In this document: piece after piece, positions 26,017 through 63,246 of the stretch
How the letters are laid out: each line of letters starts with the position of its first letter
Numbering within the stretch: the first letter of the stretch is position 1
Assembly: GCA_964016885.1 (NCBI GenBank)
Contig: CAXHJY010000826.1
Coordinates: 1 to 64,000, forward strand
Source of the DNA: Eledone cirrhosa
Taxonomy: Eukaryota
Length of the DNA: 64,000 nt
Direction of reading: 5' to 3'
Translations under genes and position numbers: made by a program
The notes under the pieces: generated by a model
Told to the model about the DNA's origin: nothing
What the model saw: only the letters and a program-made list of their open reading frames with translations
The model's database searches: none

Positions 26017-26489
26017 TAAACACACACGCATCTGTATATACACAGATACACACACATACATACATACATACATATATATATATATATGTATGTGTGTGTG
26101 TTTGTATATAAATGTGTGTGTGTGTGTGTGTGTGTGTGTTAGTCAGGATATAATACATATAAATAAAGTCTGTTTGATAAATTATAAGTATATTCATGAA
26201 TGACAATGTATGGAAGAGAGAGATAGGTAGAGAGAGAGATGGGTGAGAGAGAGAGAGTGAGTGAGGTAGAGAGAGGGAGGAAGGGGAGGTAGAGAGAGGG
26301 GGGGAGAGAAAGAAAGAAAGGAAAGAAAGAAAAAAAAGAACGAAAGAAAAAAGTGAGAGAGGATTATATGTACGTGTGTATATATATATATATGTGTGTG
26401 TTTGTCTGTCTGAGTGTATACGTATATATATATAAATGTGTATATATGTGTATTCGTGTGTGTATATAAATGTGTATATATATATATAT

Positions 26490-27082
26490 ACCTGTCTCAT
26501 GGTCGGGTCGTTGGCGACTAAACTGGCAACCCCACCAAGGTTTCTTGGTGAGGAGGGTGACTTTGGACATCCTGCAGGACTAAAAACAAAACCTGTCAAA
26601 GGGCAAAGGAGCTCTTAAGAGTCAATGGCCATCCAAAATCACCGGGAGAGATGACCCCTTTAGCCTTAGTCAAGGCAGAATTCTAGGAGAAGGAAAACTC
26701 TGATATAACACCTGCAACCCTGATGGTATCCAATGATGTTGACTTGTTCTTCTTTTTGGTAAATAGCATCTTGGTTAAGAGAGTGGGACTGGCTTTGTGC
26801 AGTGCCTTTGCTCACTATAAAAGCTTCACGGCACAGGCATTGCTTTATATCTGGAGATCTCTCTGCACTTGTCCTCACATGGGCCCAGCACTATGTGTCA
26901 ATAATTGTCCTACCATGGGCCTAGCACTATGTGTCAATAATTGTCACAGGTGTAGTGTTTGTACCAGAGGTTTCAAGTCGCTGGCTGGACTAAAAAGTCA
27001 CACTCGTTCAGCGCTTCGGTAGGGGTTATCCTACATGGATGTAAAGTAGTGGCCGTACTCGAAAACGAGTTGGCAGCCACCA
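26490..27082 (+). mobile_element. RTE-derived non-autonomous element, copy 1
   Basis: The 3' end encodes a C2H2-like CSVCTRGFKSLAGLKSHTRS and then ggccgtactcgaaaacgagttggcagccaccat(AT)n. A near-identical inverted copy lies at 58982-59588. Confidence 0.6.
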
Positions 27083-27455
27083 TATATATATATATGTGTG
27101 TGTATCTGTGTCTGGGTGTATAAGTGTATATATTTGTATTTGTGTGTATATATAAATGTGTATATATAAATGTGTATAAATTAAATGTATATGAGTCTGA
27201 GTGTATAAGTATATATATATATATGTATATATGTTTATTTGTGTGTATATATAAATATGTATATATAAATGTGTATATATAAATATATATATGAGTCTGA
27301 GTGTATAAGTATATATATGTATATATGTTTATTTCTGTGTATATATAAATATGTATATATGTTTTTTGTGTGTATATATAAATGTGTATATATGTTTATT
27401 TGTGTGTATATATAAATGTGTATATACATGTGTATATCTGTGTCTGAGTGTATAA

Positions 27456-36691: not shown

Positions 36692-39118
36692 CATAGCTCT
36701 ACCGCCGCCATTACTACAACAACAGTAACAACAACAGTAACACCACCACAGTAACTCTACCGCCGCCATTACTACAACAACAGTAACAACAACAGTAAAA
36801 ACACCACCACCACAGTAGCTCTACCGCCGCCATTACTACAACAACAGTAACAACAACAGTAACAACAACAGTAACACAACCACCATCACCACCACCACAG
36901 TAGCTCTACCGCCGCCATTACTACAACAACAGTAACAACAACAGTAACACAACCACCACCACAGTAGCTCTACCGCCACCATTACTACAACAATAGTAAC
37001 AACAACAGTAACAACACCACCACCACAGTAGCTCTACCATCGCCATTACTACAACAACATTAACAACACCATCACCACCACCACAGTAGCTCTACCGCCG
37101 CCATTACTACCACAACAGTAACAACAACAGTAACAACACCACCACCACAGTAGCTCTACCGCCGCCATTACTACAACAACAGTAACAACACCACCACCAC
37201 CACCACAGTAGCTCTACCGCCGCCATTACTACAACAACAGTAACAACAACAGTAACACAACCACCACCACCACCACCACCACAGTAGCTCTACCACCGCC
37301 ATTACTACAACAACAGTAACAACAACAGTAACACAACCACCATCACCACCACCACAGTAGCTCTACCGCCGCCATTACTACAACAACAGTAACAACAACA
37401 GTAACACAACCACCATCACCACCACCACAGTAGCTCTAGCACCACCATTACTACAACAAAAGTAACAACAACAGTAACACAACCACCACCACCACCACCA
37501 CCACCACAGTAGCTCTACCACCGCCATTACTACAACAACAGTAACAACAACAGTAACACAACCACCATCACCACCACCACAGTAGCTCTACCGCCGCCAT
37601 TACTACAACAACAGTAACAACAACAGTAACACAACCACCATCACCACCACCACAGTAGCTCTACCACCGCCATTACTACAACAACAGTAACAACAACAGT
37701 AACACAACCACCACCACCACCACCACAGTAGCTCTACCACCACCATTACTACAACAACAGTAACAACAACAGTAACACAACCACCACCACCACCACCACC
37801 ACAGTAGCTCTACCACCGCCATTACTACAACAACAGTAACAACAACAGTAACACAACCACCATCACCACCACCACAGTAGCTCTACCGCCGCCATTACTA
37901 CAACAACAGTAACAACAACAGTAACACAACCACCATCACCACCACCACAGTAGCTCTACCGCCGCCATTACTACAACAACAGTAACAACAACAGTAACAC
38001 AACCACCATCACCACCACCACAGTAGCTCTACCACCGCCATTACTACAACAACAGTAACAACACCACCACCACCACCACAGTAACTCTACCGCCGCCATT
38101 ACTACAACAACAGTAACAACAACAACAACAGTAACACCATCACCACCACCACAGTAGCTCTACCGCCGCCATTACTACAACAACAGTAACAACAACAGTA
38201 ACAACACCACCACCACCACCACAGAAGCTCTTCCGCCGCCATTACTTCAACAACAGTAACAACAACAGTAACACAACCACCATAACCACCACCACAGTAG
38301 CTCTACCGCCGCCATTACGACAACAACAGTAACAACAACAGTAACAACACCACCACCACCACCACAGTAGCTCTACCGCCGCCATCTCTACAACAACAGT
38401 AACAACAACAGTAACACAACCACCATAACCACCACCACAGTAGCTCCACCGCCGCCATTACTACATCAACAGTAACAACAACAGTAACACCACCACCACC
38501 ACGACCACCACAGTAGCTCTACCGCCGCCATTACGACAACAACAGTAACAACAACAGTAACAACACCACCACTACCACCAGAGTAGCTCTACCGCCGCCA
38601 TCTCTACAACAACAGTAACAACAACAGTAACACAACCACCATCACCACCACCACAGTAGCTCTACCACCGCCATTACTACAACAACAGTAACAACACCAC
38701 CACCACCACCACAGTAACTCTACCGCCGCCATTACTACAACAACAGTAACAACAACAACAACAGTAACACCATCACCACCACCACAGTAGCTCTACCGCC
38801 GCCATTACGACAACAACAGTAACAACAACAGTAACAACACCACCACCACCACCACAGTAGCTCTACCGCCGCCATCTCTACAACAACAGTAACAACAACA
38901 GTAACACAACCACCATAACCACCACCACAGTAGCTCCACCGCCGCCATTACTACATCAACAGTAACAACAACAGTAACACCACCACCACCACGACCACCA
39001 CAGTAGCTCTACCGCCGCCATTACGACAACAACAGTAACAACAACAGTAACAACACCACCACCACCACAGTAGCTCTACCGCCGCCATTACTACAACAAC
39101 AGTAACAACAACAACAAC
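36692..39118. repeat. Compound ~55-65-bp minisatellite
   Basis: Unit cagtagctctaccgccgccattactacaacaacagtaacaacaacagtaacacaaccacca(cca)n. Confidence 0.95.
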
Positions 39119-39315
39119 CTCTAGGGGTTGTATCGATGAACATTACACTCAGGTATTTATTGCTATCATACCATGAGTTTATTCTATTAGCGTTGTTCCT
39201 AGTTCTTTCTATTCTATTCCAAAATTTGCTCCTATACAAGGGGCAGGTCCCATTTATGTCATTATTTACCATTTTTTCCCATTTGGTTCTGGCTCCTCTA
39301 TACACTCTGATTTTA

Positions 39316-39999
39316 TCCAGAACCAAATGGGAAAAAATGGTAAATAATGACATAAATGGGACCTGCCCCTTGTATAGGAGCAAATTTTGGAATAGAATAG
39401 AAAGAACTAGGAACAACGCTAATAGAATAAACTCATGGTATGATAGCAATAAATACCAGAGTGTAATGTTCATCGATACAACCCCTAGAGGTGAATTAGC
39501 TTACAAATTTAGAAGGGCCCTAAATAAACATAAACTCAATATTAAGATAGTAGAAAGACCAGGTACCTCCGTAAAAACACACATTAGCAAGACATACCCT
39601 TTTCAAAGACCCTCATGTATAGATAAGAAATGTATAACCTGTAAAATAAGCCCCCATATTAACTGTAAAACTAGAAATGTAGTGTATAGCATAAGATGAA
39701 CCGAAGGACAATGTAGAGACAAAAATATAGTGTACTTAGGTAAGACAGCTCGTAGTGTAGGGGAACGGATAAATGAACACTGGCGAGACCTTCAAGATAG
39801 TAAAGAATCATATGTACTCTACCAACATGCTAAAATAGAACACAAGGGTAAATTAGAGAACATAGAAATAAAAATAGAATCTACACACAGAAAAGACGCA
39901 ATGTTTAGACAAATTACAGAGGCAATAAACATAAAAGAATTACAACCAAAATTAAATAGAAAATATGAGTGGAACAGCAACATCACAACTTACAATTAA
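39316..39999 (+). pseudogene. PLE ORF C-terminus: linker, Zn-binding Cys motif and GIY-YIG endonuclease
   Basis: ORFs 39136..39699 and 39730..39999 are in the same frame, separated by one TGA. They show VVY...Y.G.T.R...ER..EH and E...I...P.LN motifs. Confidence 0.8.
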
Positions 40000-40200
40000 G
40001 GACAAAATGAAAACACACACACACATAGAACAAACAACCAACCAGTAACATGTAAATAAACAAATAAATAAATGAACATAAACACACACGGACACCCGGA
40101 TGTGGCGCATGCGCAGACTGAGCACACAACACACACACAGAAACAAAATGGCGTAGGACAGAACAAAGGAGAGGCACAGAAACAAAGAAAGGAATCCCCA

Positions 40201-40243
40201 GTCACTGAAGAGGTCACAGAGTGTGTGACGAAAGAACTATGAC
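40201..40243 (+). ncRNA. Minimal type I hammerhead in PLE pLTR, family E
   Basis: gtca-CTGAAGA-ggtcac agagtgt gtgac-GAAA-gaac-TA-tgac. Confidence 0.8.
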
Positions 40244-40392
40244 AATATATAAACAACTATCTGGTTGTGGAACCAACCAACCAACCAGAAATTTATAAAT
40301 TTATAAATTTATTATAAATTTATTATAATAAATTGAAGTGAAAGCAACTGGTGCGTGTGTTTCTTATTGGAAACATGACCCTCCCAAAGTAT

Positions 40393-40451
<59 letters not shown>

Positions 40452-47981: not shown

Positions 47982-51322
<3,341 letters not shown>

Positions 51323-55540: not shown

Positions 55541-55748
55541 TATACGTAAACACACATATACATTACATACATAGCTAAACAATTATACACATGCAAATAC
55601 GTATATATCAAAAACACGCACAACCAAAAACAAATACACACACACACATACACACACACACACAACCACACACACACACATATATATACATAAAAGAATA
55701 ATAAAATAAAATAAAATAATAAAAACACACACATATACATACATACAT

Positions 55749-55801
<53 letters not shown>

Positions 55802-55971
55802 CATACATACACACACATATACACACATACGTACATATACACAGGTGCATACACATACACACACACACATATACATGTGTGTATGTGTAAAACTCAGTAT
55901 TAGCAAAGACAAATGAACCTTACATAAACGTATATATAGTAGTAAGGTAATAAAGCAACATAAGGCAATTA

Positions 55972-56030
55972 TTCCATTCACCAGAGGTTTCTTAAAAGCC
56001 AAAAATGTTTCCTTCAGTCTTCAGAATGAA
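55972..56030 (-). ncRNA. Hammerhead family F, probably inactive (GUG site)
   Basis: RC: ttcatt-CTGAAGA-ctgaagg...cttttaa-GAAA-cctctgg-TG-aatggaa. Confidence 0.55.
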
Positions 56031-56110
56031 AAAAAAGTGAAAAAAACCTGGTTTATTCACATATACAAACATATACATACACAAATATACATATATATAC
56101 ACATACACAA

Positions 56111-57944: not shown

Positions 57945-58190
57945 CACAAATTGCAGGACTTATGCCTATAGTGGAAATTATTATTATTATTATTATGCCG
58001 AGGTTAACTTTGCCTTTCATCCTAACGGGGTCGTTAAAATAAAGTACCAGTAATGTACTGGGTAATTGCTGGCCTTGTGCCTAACGTAGAAACAATTATA
58101 TATTACTAACGGGGTCGATAAAATAAAGTACCAGTAATGCACTGGGGTAATTGCTGGCCTTGTGTGAAAAAGTAGAAACAATTATTATTT
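57945..58190 (+). mobile_element. Truncated S1 SINE fragments
   Basis: Core and tail matches. Confidence 0.7.
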
Positions 58191-58349
58191 GTTTGACGTA
58201 AGCAGACGTGCGACTTATCGCTTCACAGAGATTGGATAGTTACCAAACAAAGGATTAAAGAATTGTTTATTTTAAAAAAAATGTCTTCGTGGAGCTCTTG
58301 AAGAATTCTTGGACGTCCCGCACTCCCTCGCTGTCTCTCTCCTCCCGCC

Positions 58350-58405
<56 letters not shown>

Positions 58406-58981
58406 ATACTCTCTCTCTCTCTCATACACACTCTCTCTCTCTTTATCTCTCTCTCTCAATCTCTGTCTCTCTGTCTCTCAATCTCTCAATCCCTCTCTCA
58501 CTCACTCTCTCTCACTTACTTTCTCTCTCTCAATCTCTCTCAATTTTTCCATTCTGTTTCTCTTACTCTCTCTCTCCCCCTCTGTCTCTCTTGCCAGGTT
58601 AAAAACATGGTTTATCATATCGGGGGCGTTTAAATATTGTTATGTTTGTGTTTCTATTGAAGCCAAGATGGCGACGAGCCATACAGACACTGCTCCGGTG
58701 CCCGAGCACCTCAACTAAATGTAACAAACAGAATAAAACAAATAAAAAAGAGATAACAAATTTAAATAAAGAGAAGAACGTAAAACAAGGAAGAAATGAC
58801 ATTTTTTCTTATTTTGGCAGAAAAAGGGAATAAAAGATCAAATATTCAAACATCAGCAGCAACAATACATACGTACATACATACACACATACACACATAC
58901 GTACATACATACATACATACACACATACACACATACACACATATGTACATACATATATACATATATACATATATACATATA

Positions 58982-59588
58982 TGGCGGCTGCCAACTCGTT
59001 TTCGAGTACGGCCACTACTTTATATCCATGTAGGAGAAACCCTACCGATGCGCTGAACGAGTGTGACTTTTTAATCCAGCCAGCGACTTGAAAACTCTGG
59101 TACAAACACTACACCTGTGACAATTATTGTCACATAGTGCTGGGCCCATGGTACCATGTGACGACAAGTGCAGAGAGATCTCCAGATATAAAGCAATGAC
59201 TGTGCCGTGAAGCTTTTATAGTGAGCAAAGGCACTGCACAAAGCCAGTCCCACTCTCTTAACCAAGATGATATTTACCAAAAAGAACAAGTCAACATCAT
59301 TGGATACCATCAGAGTTGCAGGTGTTATATCAGAGTTTTCCTTCTCCTAGAATTCTGCCTTGACAAAGGCTAAGGGGTCATCTCTCCCGGTGATTTTGGA
59401 TGGCCATTGACTTTTAAGAGCTCCTTTGCCCTTTGACGGGATTTGTTTTTAGTCCTGCAGGATGTCCAAAGTCACCCTCCTCACCAAGAAACCTTGGTAG
59501 GGTTGCCAGTTTAGTCGCCAACGACCCGACCATGAGACAGGTTGTACTGTGATACATGTTACCAGTAGCACCAACTGGTGACCTGACA
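58982..59588 (-). mobile_element. RTE-derived non-autonomous element, copy 2
   Basis: Reverse complement of 26490-27082 with a slightly longer 5' end. Confidence 0.6.
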
Positions 59589-59704
59589 TATATATATATA
59601 TATACATATATACATACATATATACATAGATACATGCACACATATATACATACATATATACACATACATATATACATATATACATATATACACATATACA
59701 TACA

Positions 59705-60522
59705 TCATTTATGTTTATTGCCTCTGTGATTTGTCTAAACATTGCGTCTTTTCTGTGTGTAGATTCTATTTTTATTTCTATGTTCTCTAATTTACCCTTG
59801 TGTTCTATTTTAGCATGTTGGTAGAGTACAATGATTCTTTACTATCTTGAAGATCTCGCCAGTGTTCATTTATCCGTTCCCCTATACTACGAGCTGTCTC
59901 ACCTATGTACACTATATTCTTATCTCTACATTGTCCTTCAGTACATCTTATGCTATATACTACATTTCTTGTTTTACAGTTAATATGGGGGCTTAATTTA
60001 CAGATTATACATTTCTTATCTAGACAAATCACAGAGGCAATAAACATAAATGAACTCCAACCAAAATTAAATAGAAAACATGAATGGAACAGCAACATCA
60101 CAACTTACAATTAAGGACAAAATGAAAACACACACGCACATAGAACAAACAACCAACCAGTAACATGTAAATAAACAAATAAATAAACAAATATAAACAC
60201 ACACAGACACCCGGATGTAACACATGCGCAAACTAAGCACACAACACACACAAAAACAAGATGGCGTAGGACAGAACAAAGGAGAGGCACAAAAACAAAG
60301 AAAAGAATCCCCAGTCACTGAAGAGGTCACAGAATGTGAGACGAAAGAACTTTAACAATATATATATTCCTAAATTTATAAATTTATTATAATAAATTGA
60401 AGTGAAAGCGCAACTGGTGTGTGTATTTCTTATTGGCAACATGACCCTCCCAAAGTATAACAATATCGGTTTCAACACACGTTTTCAGATAAAGAATCTT
60501 GCTAAACAAATTCAGAAACGAA
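59705..60522 (+). mobile_element. Neptune-like PLE fragment with inverted 5' part and pLTR (degenerate HHR ~60314-60356)
   Basis: 59705-~60022 is the minus-strand GIY-YIG region (RNVVYSIRCTEGQC..YIGETARSIGERINEH). From ~60020 it matches 39905-40398 on the plus strand. Confidence 0.85.
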
Positions 60523-60806
60523 ATATATATATATATATATATAAATTGGATATATAATTGGATATATATACATATTTGGAAACTCTGCTTCGTAAAATCG
60601 AGAAATGTCCGAGGTCCTCGCGATTTCAGAGTGAGGTTTGATCACTGCATCGATCGTGCCTCGAGCTGGTCGGCAGAGAAACGATTGTAATATGTCTAAT
60701 AAATTTTATTCGTCACTCCACTGATTCTCCGTTTCTTATGTGATATATATATATATATTTACCAAAGAGAATGACACAATAAAGTTCGTAGTTCATTTAT
60801 TGCTTT

Positions 60807-60852
<46 letters not shown>

Positions 60853-61310
60853 TATGTATGTATGTATACGTACATACATATATGTATACAGACGTACAGT
60901 AGTATGTATATATATACATACATGCACACATATATATATGCACGTATCGGTTTACCGAACATTTATTATAATGCTCGGTTTGTAAACAAACAAACAGCCC
61001 GAATTACGCCGTAGAGTGTGTAGGCAACCACGTCACATTTTTGTTCAACACTGACACTGGAAAGATGTACTAGTTTCAAGCTTATTAGCTATCGTCAGCA
61101 TCGTACACCTTCCGGCCAGATGGTTGAACGTCTGAAAGTATATACGTTCCTTATGCATATTAACGGCTGAGCAATATATATATATATATATAGATATATA
61201 TATATATATATATATTATATATGTATATTATATATATATATATTATATATGTATATTATATATGTATATTATATATGTATATTATATATGTATATTATAT
61301 ATGTATATTA

Positions 61311-61361
<51 letters not shown>

Positions 61362-61582
61362 AATTAAGTTAAAAATGTACATCTATATATGTATACTGAA
61401 ATACTAGTATGCATATGAATACACACACGTATACATATGTAGATGTACCAAGTCTTTCACTGGTTACTTTACTGTGAGTATCCAGCTATTCTGTATGTAA
61501 ACACACAGACAAACCGGTTTTTAGAGTCATACTGGTTTTTGAGGAAACACCTTTCCTCTATTCTCCAGAAAGCCAGACAAGG

Positions 61583-61627
61583 AACATTGAACTAGTTTCG
61601 TTGTTGTTACAACTCATCAGCAATATT
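61583..61627 (-). ncRNA. Type I hammerhead, family G
   Basis: Reverse complement of 62090-62134. Confidence 0.75.
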
Positions 61628-62089
61628 TACCTATCTACCGGCCTTTCTGGAGAATCGTAAAAGCACATATCGTTATATGCTTTTTCTATGAAAATTAGTA
61701 GTGGGCAGACTAATTTGCATAGTGTGTGAGTACGTACCGGTTCAACGGAGACGATAAAAACAAATAACGAAACGAAATTAAATTTCGTTTCGTTTGTAAC
61801 TCACTTTTGTATGACTGACGCTTAAAACAATTAAGTTAAAAATGAAATACTAGTATGCATATGAATACACACACGTATACATATGTAGATGTACCAAGTC
61901 TTTCACTGGTTACTTTACTGTGAGTATCCAGCTATTCTGTATCGTTTCGTTATTTGTTTTTATCGTCTCCGTTGAACCGGTACGTACTCACACTCTATGC
62001 AAATTAGTCTGCCCACTACTAATTTTCATAGAAAAAGCATATAACGATATGTGCTTTTACGATTCTCCAGAAAGGCCGGTAGATAGGTA

Positions 62090-62134
62090 AATATTGCTGA
62101 TGAGTTGTAACAACAACGAAACTAGTTCAATGTT
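62090..62134 (+). ncRNA. Type I hammerhead, family G
   Basis: aatattg-CTGATGA-gttg taacaa caac-GAAA-ctag-TT-caatgtt. Confidence 0.75.
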
Positions 62135-62513
62135 CCTTGTCTGGCTTTCTGGAGAATAGAGGAAAGGTGTTTCCTCAAAAACCAGTATGACTCTAAAAAC
62201 CGGTTTGTCTGTGTGTTTACATACAGAATAGCTGGATACTCACAGTAAAGTAACCAGTGAAAGACTTGGTACATCTACATATGTATACGTGTGTGTATTT
62301 CATATGCATACTAGTATTTCAGTATACATATATAGATGTACATTTTTAACTTAATTGTTTAAGCGTCAGTCATACAAAAGTGAGTTACAAACGAAACGAA
62401 ATTTAATTTCGTTTCGTTATTTGTTTTTATATATATATATGTATATTATATATGTATATTATATATGTATATTATATATATATTATATATGTATATATAT
62501 ATATATATATATA

Positions 62514-63176
62514 TTGTTATACTTTGGGAGGGTCATGTTGCCAATAAGAAACACACGCACCAGTTGCTTTCACTTCAATTTATTATATATTTATAAATTT
62601 ATAAATTTACAAATCTACAAACTTATAAATTTCTGGTTGGTTGGTTGGTTCCACAACCAGATAGTTGTTTATATATAGTCATAGTCCTTTCGTCACACAC
62701 TCTGTGACCTCTTCAGTGACACACACATAGAACAAACAACCAACCAACAATAAATAAATAAATAAATAAATAAACAAATAGATAAATGAACACAAACACA
62801 CACAGACACCTGGATGTGGCGCATGCGCAAACTGAGCTCACAACACAAACACAGAAACAAAATGGCGTAGGATAGAAGAAAGGAAAGGCACAGAAACAAA
62901 GAAAGGAATCCCCAGTCACTGAAGAGATCACAGAGTGTGTGACGAAAGGACTATAACTATATATAAACAACTATCTGGTTGTGGAACCAACCAACCAACC
63001 AGAAATTTATAAGTTTGTAGATTTGTAAATTTATAAATTTATAAATATATAATAAATTGAAGTGAAAGCAACTGGTGCGTGTGTTTCTTATTGGCAACAT
63101 GACCCTTCCAAAGTATAACAATATCGGTTTCAACACACAATTTTAGATAAAGATTCTTGCTAAACAAATTCAGAAA

Positions 63177-63179
<3 letters not shown>
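62514..63179. mobile_element. Inverted pair of Neptune-like pLTRs
   Basis: 62514-62720 is the minus-strand and 62720-63179 the plus-strand match to 40015-40398. Confidence 0.8.
62678..62720 (-). ncRNA. Minimal hammerhead, family E (intact)
   Basis: RC gtca-CTGAAGA-ggtcacagagtgtgtgac-GAAA-ggac-TA-tgac. A mutated plus-strand copy lies at 62915-62957. Confidence 0.75.

Positions 63180-63246
<67 letters not shown>

What the first reader, a model, noticed from the sequence alone, without database searches (positions are those of the whole stretch)
61358..62430. Retrozyme/circRNA-like ~467-bp monomer with HHR, junction read through in both orientations
Seen: monomer 61358-61823 restarts at 61824 with a small deletion. 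At 61943 it flips, and the inverted copy runs through the monomer start into the monomer end (62361-62430), crossing the same head-to-tail junction on both strands. There is no ORF. The HHR helix I extends into a long rod (ttctccagaaaggccgg ... ctggctttctggagaa, ~62063-62157). Known: metazoan non-LTR retrozymes are tandem HHR monomers of a few hundred nt that give circular RNAs. Inference: this was reverse-transcribed from a circular or multimeric RNA, probably by a PLE RT, with template switching.
Basis: partly seen in the sequence, partly recalled or inferred. Interest (0 to 1): 0.8.

Follow-up and report, generated by a model that had tools for sequence, protein, structure and literature searches.

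The report
Back-to-back hammerhead retrozyme insertion
A 467-base non-coding unit carrying a predicted self-cutting hammerhead RNA sits as two back-to-back copies in a TA microsatellite; it is likely a retrozyme, a known small parasitic element of animals, and small scars one unit-length from each copy's outer end suggest it was copied from a circular RNA, probably by a borrowed Penelope-type reverse transcriptase.

Summary
Observation confirmed. 61358-62430 holds two divergent arms of one 467-nt unit with no ORF: left 1.30 units (minus strand), right 1.05 units (plus), joined at 61942, both outer ends in (TA)n. Each arm has a type I hammerhead (predicted cut after 62127 / 61590, GUU) whose helix III is one pair plus a palindromic loop, the dimer-dependent form. 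A diverged relative next door shows 5 compensatory pairs of 14. In public run X1 the unit is very abundant, is read through head to tail, and has recurrent ends joined to (TA)n at 62356-62361; no PLE-ORF junction was shown. All three Penelope-like insertions mapped in the window have the same inverted layout. So: a new member of the animal non-LTR retrozymes, likely moved by a PLE reverse transcriptase priming from both target strands. New detail: both arms stumble about 0-22 nt after one full lap from their own, different starts, which favours a circular template (about 55%); a linear multimer is not excluded. Cleavage, expression and circularity are untested. Interest 0.38.

The parts
61358..61823 (-). 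Left arm, first pass: one full unit (466 nt, 1-nt deletion variant); RNA-sense 3' end at 61358 abuts (TA)n = inferred RT start 1
   Evidence: recurrent (TA)n-joined ends at the equivalent 62356-62361 in run X1
61824..61942 (-).
61942..62430 (+). Right arm: one 467-nt unit plus 22 nt; 3' end at 62430 abuts (TA)n = inferred RT start 2, about 69 nt downstream of start 1 ('tail')
61942..61943 (.). Inversion junction, 1-nt microhomology; both inner ends lie at hairpin loops of the unit
   Evidence: not seen as a strand-change joint in the 4 runs laid
62062..62158 (+). Type I hammerhead with extended helix I; core from 62097, stem II 62104-62117, helix III one A-U pair plus palindromic tetraloop, GUU, predicted cut after 62127
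61559..61655 (-). Identical hammerhead in the left arm; core from 61620, predicted cut after 61590
62390..62418 (+). Near-perfect 13-14 bp hairpin between the two inferred RT starts (also 61766-61794); the right arm's 5' end falls in its repeat
61175..61357 (.). Left flank: (TA)n with a 13-nt TA-rich repeat
   Evidence: family D8
62431..62510 (.). Right flank: (TA)n with the same 13-nt repeat; a target-site duplication cannot be delimited
60850..61174 (-). Diverged relative (family B), partial unit with the same hammerhead type (core 61098, GUA), ending in (TA)n just after the long AU hairpin as family A does
   Evidence: local alignment score 107.5 vs maximum 42 in 100 shuffles; no Rfam hammerhead hit
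59705..60525 (.). Context: Penelope-like insertion (family C), inverted 59705-60026 plus forward 60021-60525 with tail
62511..63180 (.). Context: Penelope-like pLTR pair (family C), inverted 62511-62720 plus forward 62719-63180 with tail; hammerheads at 62716 (-) and 62919 (+)
39117..40400 (.). Context: Penelope-like 3' fragment (CX4CxxC finger, GIY-YIG-like core broken by a stop, pLTR C with hammerhead at 40205) with its own 5' inversion
   Evidence: motif reading against PMC8557442 passages; no Pfam hit above cut-off

Best explanation
This is a 467-nt, protein-free, hammerhead-bearing repeat present as two divergent arms in a (TA)n tract; it is likely a non-LTR retrozyme (non-autonomous Penelope-like element), likely inserted by a borrowed PLE protein that primed reverse transcription from both target strands on two likely circular RNA copies. 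Steps: (1, inferred) head-to-tail arrays elsewhere are transcribed; (2, predicted) two hammerheads pair through their palindromic helix III and cut after GUU, and the monomer is ligated to a circle in which the lone ribozyme is weak; (3, inferred) a PLE GIY-YIG/RT nicks both strands of (TA)n and starts internally at two U-rich sites about 69 nt apart that flank a perfect hairpin; (4, shown as sequence, inferred as mechanism) each cDNA runs one full lap, through the cut site, and falters on meeting its own start: the right one stops 22 nt later, the left one adds 1 nt at the start site, skips 21 nt about 19 nt later and goes on to 1.30 laps; (5, inferred) the two cDNA ends are joined by 1-nt microhomology, giving the inverted pair. 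About 85% for retrozyme moved by a PLE, about 55% for circular templates in this event.
For: Hammerhead: descriptor hits vs 0 in 30 shuffles; Rfam HH9 E 2e-7; 5 of 14 pairs changed on both sides between family A and B, covariation 0.71 vs at most 0.29 when slid, 11 of 500 shuffles as high, only 2 distinct sequences; position 62132 is A in 99.8% of X1 depth, keeping the stem I pair. Helix III matches the dimer-type metazoan motif (PMC4209133 passages; axolotl HHR_Amex1 in PMC7229834). Head-to-tail continuity: a single 496-nt contig that goes back 467 in X4, the same joint in X6, one in X1; X1 laid 1065 contigs, summed depth 1.8-6.0e5 with no drop across 62361, share running on into unlike sequence 0. 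Recurrent end: 7 contigs join (TA)n behind 62356/62361 (2 of the 6 X1 loose-end rows shown). PLE signature: 3 of 3 family-C PLE insertions mapped in the window have a 5' inversion with 3' ends outward, 2 of 3 with a tail; partial tandem + inverted copy + tail + (TA)n bias are PLE hallmarks; a PLE protein cuts and extends both strands and starts internally at two adjacent sites (PMC11167929). Circle: lesions at template distance 468 and 486 (left) and end at 489 (right) from different starts; crude post-hoc null 0.002-0.004; both left passes share a 1-nt deletion allele that the right arm lacks and that is polymorphic in X1 (30% of depth), so two templates, one read twice.
Against: The go-back joint in contigs arises equally from tandem DNA; in X6 2 of 6 loose ends shown look like Hi-C restriction ligation joints (one exactly at the HinfI site 62061), so there the joined form is probably DNA. 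A linear RNA of about 1.45 units with one hammerhead would serve as template for both arms. The lap test is post hoc with a window chosen after seeing the data; the extra A lies in a homopolymer and may be a slip or assembly error; the deletion and both inner ends sit in hairpins, which can stall RT by themselves. The active hammerhead fold is 7.6 kcal/mol above the free fold, and GUU is a weak triplet (triplet ranking recalled); only 1 of 9 Xenopus retrozyme dimers cleaved in vitro; ribozyme cleavage was not needed for PLE insertion in vitro. No autonomous partner was found: family C pLTR is not similar to the unit (scores 27-47, near the shuffle level of 42). The inversion junction is not confirmed by any laid run. 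36 loose ends and 1079 pieces were not displayed.
Confidence: 0.6

Rival explanations
1. Same retrozyme and same PLE two-strand priming, but the templates were linear, uncleaved read-through transcripts of a tandem array; no circle is involved in this insertion.
For: About 1.45 units with one dimer-dependent hammerhead cover both arms; PLE RT uses unprocessed RNA in vitro; head-to-tail form probably exists as DNA in X6; lesions lie in hairpins and a homopolymer.
Confidence: 0.25
2. Ordinary inverted pLTR remnant of an autonomous PLE whose ORF was lost by 5' truncation.
For: Preferred ends exist (62356-62361); layout equals that of PLE family C; retrozymes and pLTRs are related.
Against: Upstream of each unit lies the same unit, not an ORF end; no ORF; X1 depth runs on round the unit and share running into unlike sequence is 0; X4 closes on itself.
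Confidence: 0.06
3. DNA-level rearrangement (fold-back or template switch at hairpins) of one older insertion, or a long-read/assembly chimera.
For: Arms are 99.5% identical and share alleles that are minor in X1 (62132G 0.2%, 62237T about 6%); inner ends lie in hairpins; junction not seen in laid runs.
Against: The arms are not mirror images about the junction; the right arm contains an undeleted read-through of 62321-62408 that the left arm does not hold in one piece; arms differ at a site polymorphic in X1, X4 and X6; three PLE copies nearby have the same layout.
Confidence: 0.06
4. A viroid-like circular RNA that replicates as RNA and occurs in several hosts, here captured in the genome.
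For: X4 (another organism label) holds one closed 496-nt contig with no flanks at depth 4.5; X6 (a third label) also holds the unit; highly structured, one hammerhead.
Against: Every X4 and X6 substitution listed also occurs in the X1 pool; depth is 4-5 orders lower than X1, as carry-over between libraries would give; X6 joints look like DNA ligation; no ribozyme on the opposite strand; a diverged genomic relative (B) shows long residence.
Confidence: 0.03

Closest known systems
Metazoan non-LTR retrozymes (Cervera and de la Pena 2020, PMC7229834; parts 2-4 of 6 read, supplement not readable)
   Same: Non-coding, GC 35%, highly self-paired unit repeated head to tail, one type I hammerhead per unit, no LTR/PBS/PPT, PLEs in the same genome; helix III as in axolotl HHR_Amex1 (single pair, palindromic tetraloop).
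   Different: Unit 467 nt, above the 150-450 bp / 170-400 nt given there; GUU triplet (GUC in 7.6% of X1 depth); this locus has under two direct units and an inverted second arm; circles and cleavage not tested here.
Non-LTR retrozymes as non-autonomous PLE derivatives (Li, Clavereau, Pollet, bioRxiv 10.64898/2026.07.22.740005; parts 1-3 of 5 read, supplements not seen)
   Same: Co-occurrence with PLEs; unit length inside their 51-972 bp range; dispersed monomer-like copies.
   Different: They show pLTR homology for 24 of 57 Xenopus families; here no similar pLTR was found in the window. This locus fails their 'active' criterion (two consecutive direct units with a hammerhead). They give no insertion-junction evidence.
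EN+ Penelope-like elements: complex insertions (Craig et al. 2021, PMC8557442, passages) and PAc biochemistry (Frangieh et al. 2024, PMC11167929, parts 1-2 of 4)
   Same: Partial tandem, inverted 5'-truncated copy, tail at one end, (TA)n / AT-rich target, two internal RT start sites, both strands cut and extended; non-autonomous head-to-tail elements (MRC1) are described.
   Different: No ORF; tail about 69 nt rather than 30-40; canonical rather than minimal hammerhead; starts are U-rich, not in an AC-rich stem-loop, though they flank a hairpin with an AC-rich arm.
Rfam Hammerhead_HH9 (RF02275)
   Same: Core, 4-bp stem II with 6-nt loop, bulged helix I.
   Different: 35 bits vs gathering 52; helix III truncated; repeated mobile context. 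Not a member.

Membership tests
Non-LTR retrozyme | Type I hammerhead in the unit | tested here: met
   (structure and covariation; activity not tested)
Non-LTR retrozyme | Short non-coding unit of a few hundred nt, GC under 50%, self-paired | tested here: met
   467 nt, GC 0.35, longest ATG ORF 50 aa, circular fold -150.6 vs -92.2 +/- 6.3 in 40 shuffles
Non-LTR retrozyme | Head-to-tail tandem organisation | tested here: met
   1.30 and 1.05 units here; go-back-467 joints in X4, X6 and X1. Array length elsewhere unknown
Non-LTR retrozyme | Two consecutive direct units each with a hammerhead (Li et al. 'active' criterion) at this locus | tested here: not met
   one hammerhead per arm, opposite strands; this copy is a product, not a source of monomers; family-level status unknown
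Non-LTR retrozyme | Self-cleavage (monomer or dimer) | not testable with these tools
   prediction only: helix III needs a dimer; constrained fold -27.2 vs free -34.8 kcal/mol
Non-LTR retrozyme | Expressed as monomeric circular RNA | not testable with these tools
   contigs cannot tell circle from tandem DNA
Non-LTR retrozyme | Co-occurrence with PLEs | tested here: met
   PLE-like ORF fragment and pLTRs in the window by motif reading; no profile or homologue hit
Non-autonomous PLE derivative | PLE-type insertion anatomy (partial tandem, inverted copy, tail, microsatellite target) | tested here: met
Non-autonomous PLE derivative | Sequence similarity to the pLTR of an autonomous PLE | tested here: inconclusive
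   no similarity to the one pLTR family compared (C); no genome held to search
Autonomous PLE pLTR | Unit preceded by an RT/GIY-YIG ORF end | tested here: not met
   unit precedes unit; X1 share running into unlike sequence 0; 36 loose ends not displayed
Plant-type LTR retrozyme | Type III hammerhead in LTRs, 4-bp TSD | tested here: not met
   type I topology, no LTR pair; family features
Hammerhead viroid-like RNA | Ribozymes in both polarities, no DNA form (criteria recalled) | tested here: not met
   one polarity only; genomic with a diverged relative
Rfam Hammerhead_HH9 | Gathering score 52 bits | tested here: not met
   35 bits

The most novel reading that the evidence does not exclude
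This locus is a direct footprint of rolling-circle, two-strand target-primed reverse transcription: a PLE enzyme copied two circular retrozyme RNAs from opposite strands of a (TA)n break, and each copy faltered when it lapped its own start. If 'one unit plus about 20 nt' recurs among the copies of this very abundant family, genomes alone would prove that animal circular RNAs are the retrotransposition template, a step so far only proposed.
Probability: 0.4. Interest if true: 0.62.

Novelty: new member of a known kind. Interest (0 to 1): 0.38.

Why it matters
The class is known, so the element itself is a modest find: a new, very abundant retrozyme family with a long unit and a dimer-type GUU hammerhead, apparently from a lineage where my searches found none described. 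What could matter is the scar pattern. The retrozyme life cycle (circle to PLE RT to tandem cDNA) is a hypothesis in PMC7229834, and the 2026 preprint says the mechanism remains to be worked out. Lesions phase-locked to one lap from each copy's own start give a cheap, genome-only test that separates circular from linear templates, and the two start sites point to the RNA element that the PLE protein binds.

Tried and rejected
No whole genome is held, so permutation of copies and a partner PLE could not be searched. Sequencing runs: 20 rows hold part of the unit, 16 studies, no RNA holder listed; this says nothing on expression. Only 4 of 24 runs were laid; the 16 or so other small and middle shares under many organism labels are not used as evidence. 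X22 (raw Hi-C reads, about 1% of the run) laid 0 reads: no test. Summed contig depth is not a copy number, and whether X1 is DNA or RNA is not on record. A>G excess (6 of 10 substitutions in X4, 5 of 11 in X6, 6 of 18 in X1) was considered as A-to-I editing and dropped: polarity is unclear and no matched DNA exists. Viral contigs: 19 pattern matches, none similar to the unit (scores 27-45.5) and none with hammerhead stems by eye. Metagenome contigs: 0 exact matches to the core. Rfam microRNA and snoRNA matches are TA-repeat noise. PLE-C protein: no Pfam family above cut-off, no homologue among longer proteins; its clade (Neptune/Nematis-like by the CX4CxxC finger) rests on motif reading only. 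A heptamer helix shared by the A hairpin and the C tail is within chance and was not used as evidence for C as partner. Twin priming on one linear RNA (left arm, 48-nt gap, right arm) was considered; it needs an uncut RNA of at least 2.4 units with two hammerheads and does not explain the lap-phased lesions. Earlier scan notes: nothing by sequence, genome or relatives. Literature searches: octopus + hammerhead ribozyme (4 of 5 listed), cephalopod + hammerhead + ribozyme (4 of 7 listed), twin priming + Penelope (3 of 3), retrozyme + reverse transcription + circular template + tandem (15 of 109 listed): by titles and abstract starts none describes this family or this scar pattern. The supplement of PMC7229834 (its invertebrate retrozyme and life-cycle figures) could not be read and the preprint's tables were not seen; either may list a relative.

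Full report
Setting. The window is AT-rich, microsatellite-laden animal-type DNA. An abundant short repeat in it looks, from memory only, like an octopus SINE; no call names the organism and no whole genome is held.

Observation. Exact matching and alignment against the repeated unit give this map. Left arm, minus strand: 61358-61823 is one unit; it restarts at 61824 with one extra A, skips 21 nt after 61842 and ends at 61942, having read 608 nt of template (1.30 units). Right arm, plus strand: 61942-62430, 489 nt, one 467-nt unit plus 22 nt. The arms meet at their 5' ends with 1 nt shared and both 3' ends run into (TA)n with 2-3 nt of possible microhomology. Over a unit they differ by one mismatch and one 1-nt indel. 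There is no ORF above 50 aa even when the unit is read as a circle. The unit folds as a branched set of hairpins (z -9.56; circular fold -150.6 against -92.2 +/- 6.3 in 40 shuffles).

The ribozyme. Each arm has a type I hammerhead (core at 62097 and 61620; stem I 7 bp extended to a long helix, z -4.65; stem II 4-5 bp; GUU; predicted cut after 62127 and 61590). A strict descriptor gave 4 hits in the window and 0 in each of 30 shuffles, a broader one 8 and 0 of 30. Rfam HH9 matches at E 2e-7 but below its gathering score. A diverged relative (B) lies at about 60850-61174 (score 107.5 against a maximum of 42 in 100 shuffles); between A and B the core is kept and 5 of 14 pairs change on both sides, 3 are broken in B, and slid structures score far lower (two distinct sequences only). 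Helix III is one A-U pair closed by a palindromic tetraloop; two copies could form a 6-bp helix (-4.8 kcal/mol). This is the dimer-dependent form described for metazoan hammerheads (PMC4209133, passages) and axolotl HHR_Amex1 (PMC7229834). The catalytic fold is 7.6 kcal/mol above the free fold. Activity is predicted, not shown.

Public runs. Four of 24 listed runs were laid on 61942-62430. X1 gave 1065 contigs (485 at 99% or more) with summed depth 1.8-6.0e5 in all bins; this is no copy number and the library type is not on record. Depth does not fall across 62361, 63 contigs run over the ends, one carries a go-back joint, and the share running on into unlike sequence is 0. Two of the six X1 loose-end rows shown are (TA)n behind 62356 (2 contigs) and 62361 (5 contigs), the place where the left arm meets its flank; 36 loose ends were not displayed. 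X4 holds one 496-nt contig that goes back 467 (depth 4.5); X6 has the same joint (depth 17), and 2 of its 6 displayed loose ends look like Hi-C ligation joints, so the head-to-tail form there is probably DNA. All substitutions listed for X4 and X6 also occur in X1, which fits carry-over or close kin. X22 laid no reads (no test). No strand-change joint for 61942 appeared. Both arms carry alleles that are minor in X1 at all 7 positions checked, so they come from close templates; the 1-nt deletion at 62298 (30% of X1 depth) is in both passes of the left arm and not in the right arm.

PLE context. A PLE-like ORF end lies at about 39300-39996: a CX4CxxC finger, then a GIY-YIG-like core broken by a stop, as described for Neptune/Nematis-type elements (PMC8557442, passages); no profile or homologue search confirmed it. 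Its pLTR (family C, with its own hammerhead) occurs in three insertions, and 3 of 3 have a 5' inversion with 3' ends outward; 2 carry a tail. Family C is not similar to the unit, so the partner is not identified. Partial tandems, an inverted 5'-truncated copy, a tail and (TA)n bias are PLE hallmarks, and non-autonomous head-to-tail elements are known. A purified PLE protein cuts and extends both strands at AT-rich DNA and starts internally at two adjacent sites that define the tail; ribozyme cleavage is not needed (PMC11167929, parts 1-2 of 4). The two arms here, with starts at 62360 and 62430, fit that picture.

Circle or multimer. A ribozyme-made circle would be sealed at 62127/62128; both arms cross that point unchanged, but a linear RNA of about 1.45 units with one weak hammerhead would allow this too. 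What favours a circle is phase: counted from its own start, the left arm gains 1 nt at 468 and skips 21 nt at 486, and the right arm ends at 489, although the starts are about 69 nt apart. An RT without RNase H (recalled for PLEs) that laps a circle must displace its own anchored cDNA just there. A crude uniform null gives 0.002-0.004 for one lesion plus one end in that 25-nt window, but the window was chosen afterwards, the extra A is in a homopolymer, and the deletion and both inner ends sit in hairpins. I put circular templates at about 55%.

Comparison. It meets the testable marks of animal non-LTR retrozymes (PMC7229834, parts 2-4 of 6) and fits the view that they are non-autonomous PLE derivatives (bioRxiv 10.64898/2026.07.22.740005, parts 1-3 of 5). 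This locus itself lacks two direct hammerheads and is a product rather than a source. It is not an LTR retrozyme, not an ORF-linked pLTR, not HH9, and not viroid-like by polarity. Searches (listings and abstract starts) showed no description of this family or of lap-phased scars; unread supplements may bear on the first point. Other agents' notes on retrozyme-like repeats in other genomes agree on the kind, were not checked and are not counted as support.

Verdict. Real feature; new member of a known kind; interest 0.38. The boldest open reading, a direct footprint of rolling-circle two-strand priming on circular RNA, has about 40% and would deserve about 0.62.

Noticed in passing
window 60850-61174 (-): Second, diverged retrozyme-like family (B) with the same palindromic helix III, GUA triplet and a U-U mismatch at the base of stem II; missed by Rfam.
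   Followed up: partly
window 39117-40400, 59705-60525, 62511-63180: Three insertions of one PLE family (C), each with a 5' inversion: fold-back of about 190 nt, twin-priming-like with 33-nt overlap, and inverted pLTR; two alternative 3' ends about 55-60 nt apart.
   Followed up: partly
window 16227 (-), 25557 (+), 57228 (+), 56024 (-): Further type I hammerhead-like motifs with long stem II; 16227 and 25557 have palindromic helix III; 57217-57537 matches 55733-56035 inverted at 70%.
   Followed up: no
window 413, 52758, 56785 (+); 40515, 41134 (-): Repeated CUGANGA motifs in similar contexts, possibly more pLTR hammerhead families not caught by the descriptor.
   Followed up: no
window 59705-63180: Four hammerhead-bearing insertions (C, B, A, C) stacked in about 3.5 kb, each separated by (TA)n with a shared 13-nt repeat: an insertion hotspot.
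   Followed up: partly
run X1 at 62127 and 62116: Minority variants: GUC instead of GUU (7.6% of depth, 8 contigs) and a stem II change (22%), suggesting subfamilies with different ribozyme strength.
   Followed up: no
window 48267-48690: Fragment that reads like a mariner/Tc1 transposase (recalled motif).
   Followed up: no
window 57984-58192 and more than ten other places: Abundant ~110-nt SINE-like repeat, here with an internal duplication.
   Followed up: no
window 58889-59672 and 26365-27177: Another dispersed repeat, two copies at 85% in opposite orientation.
   Followed up: no
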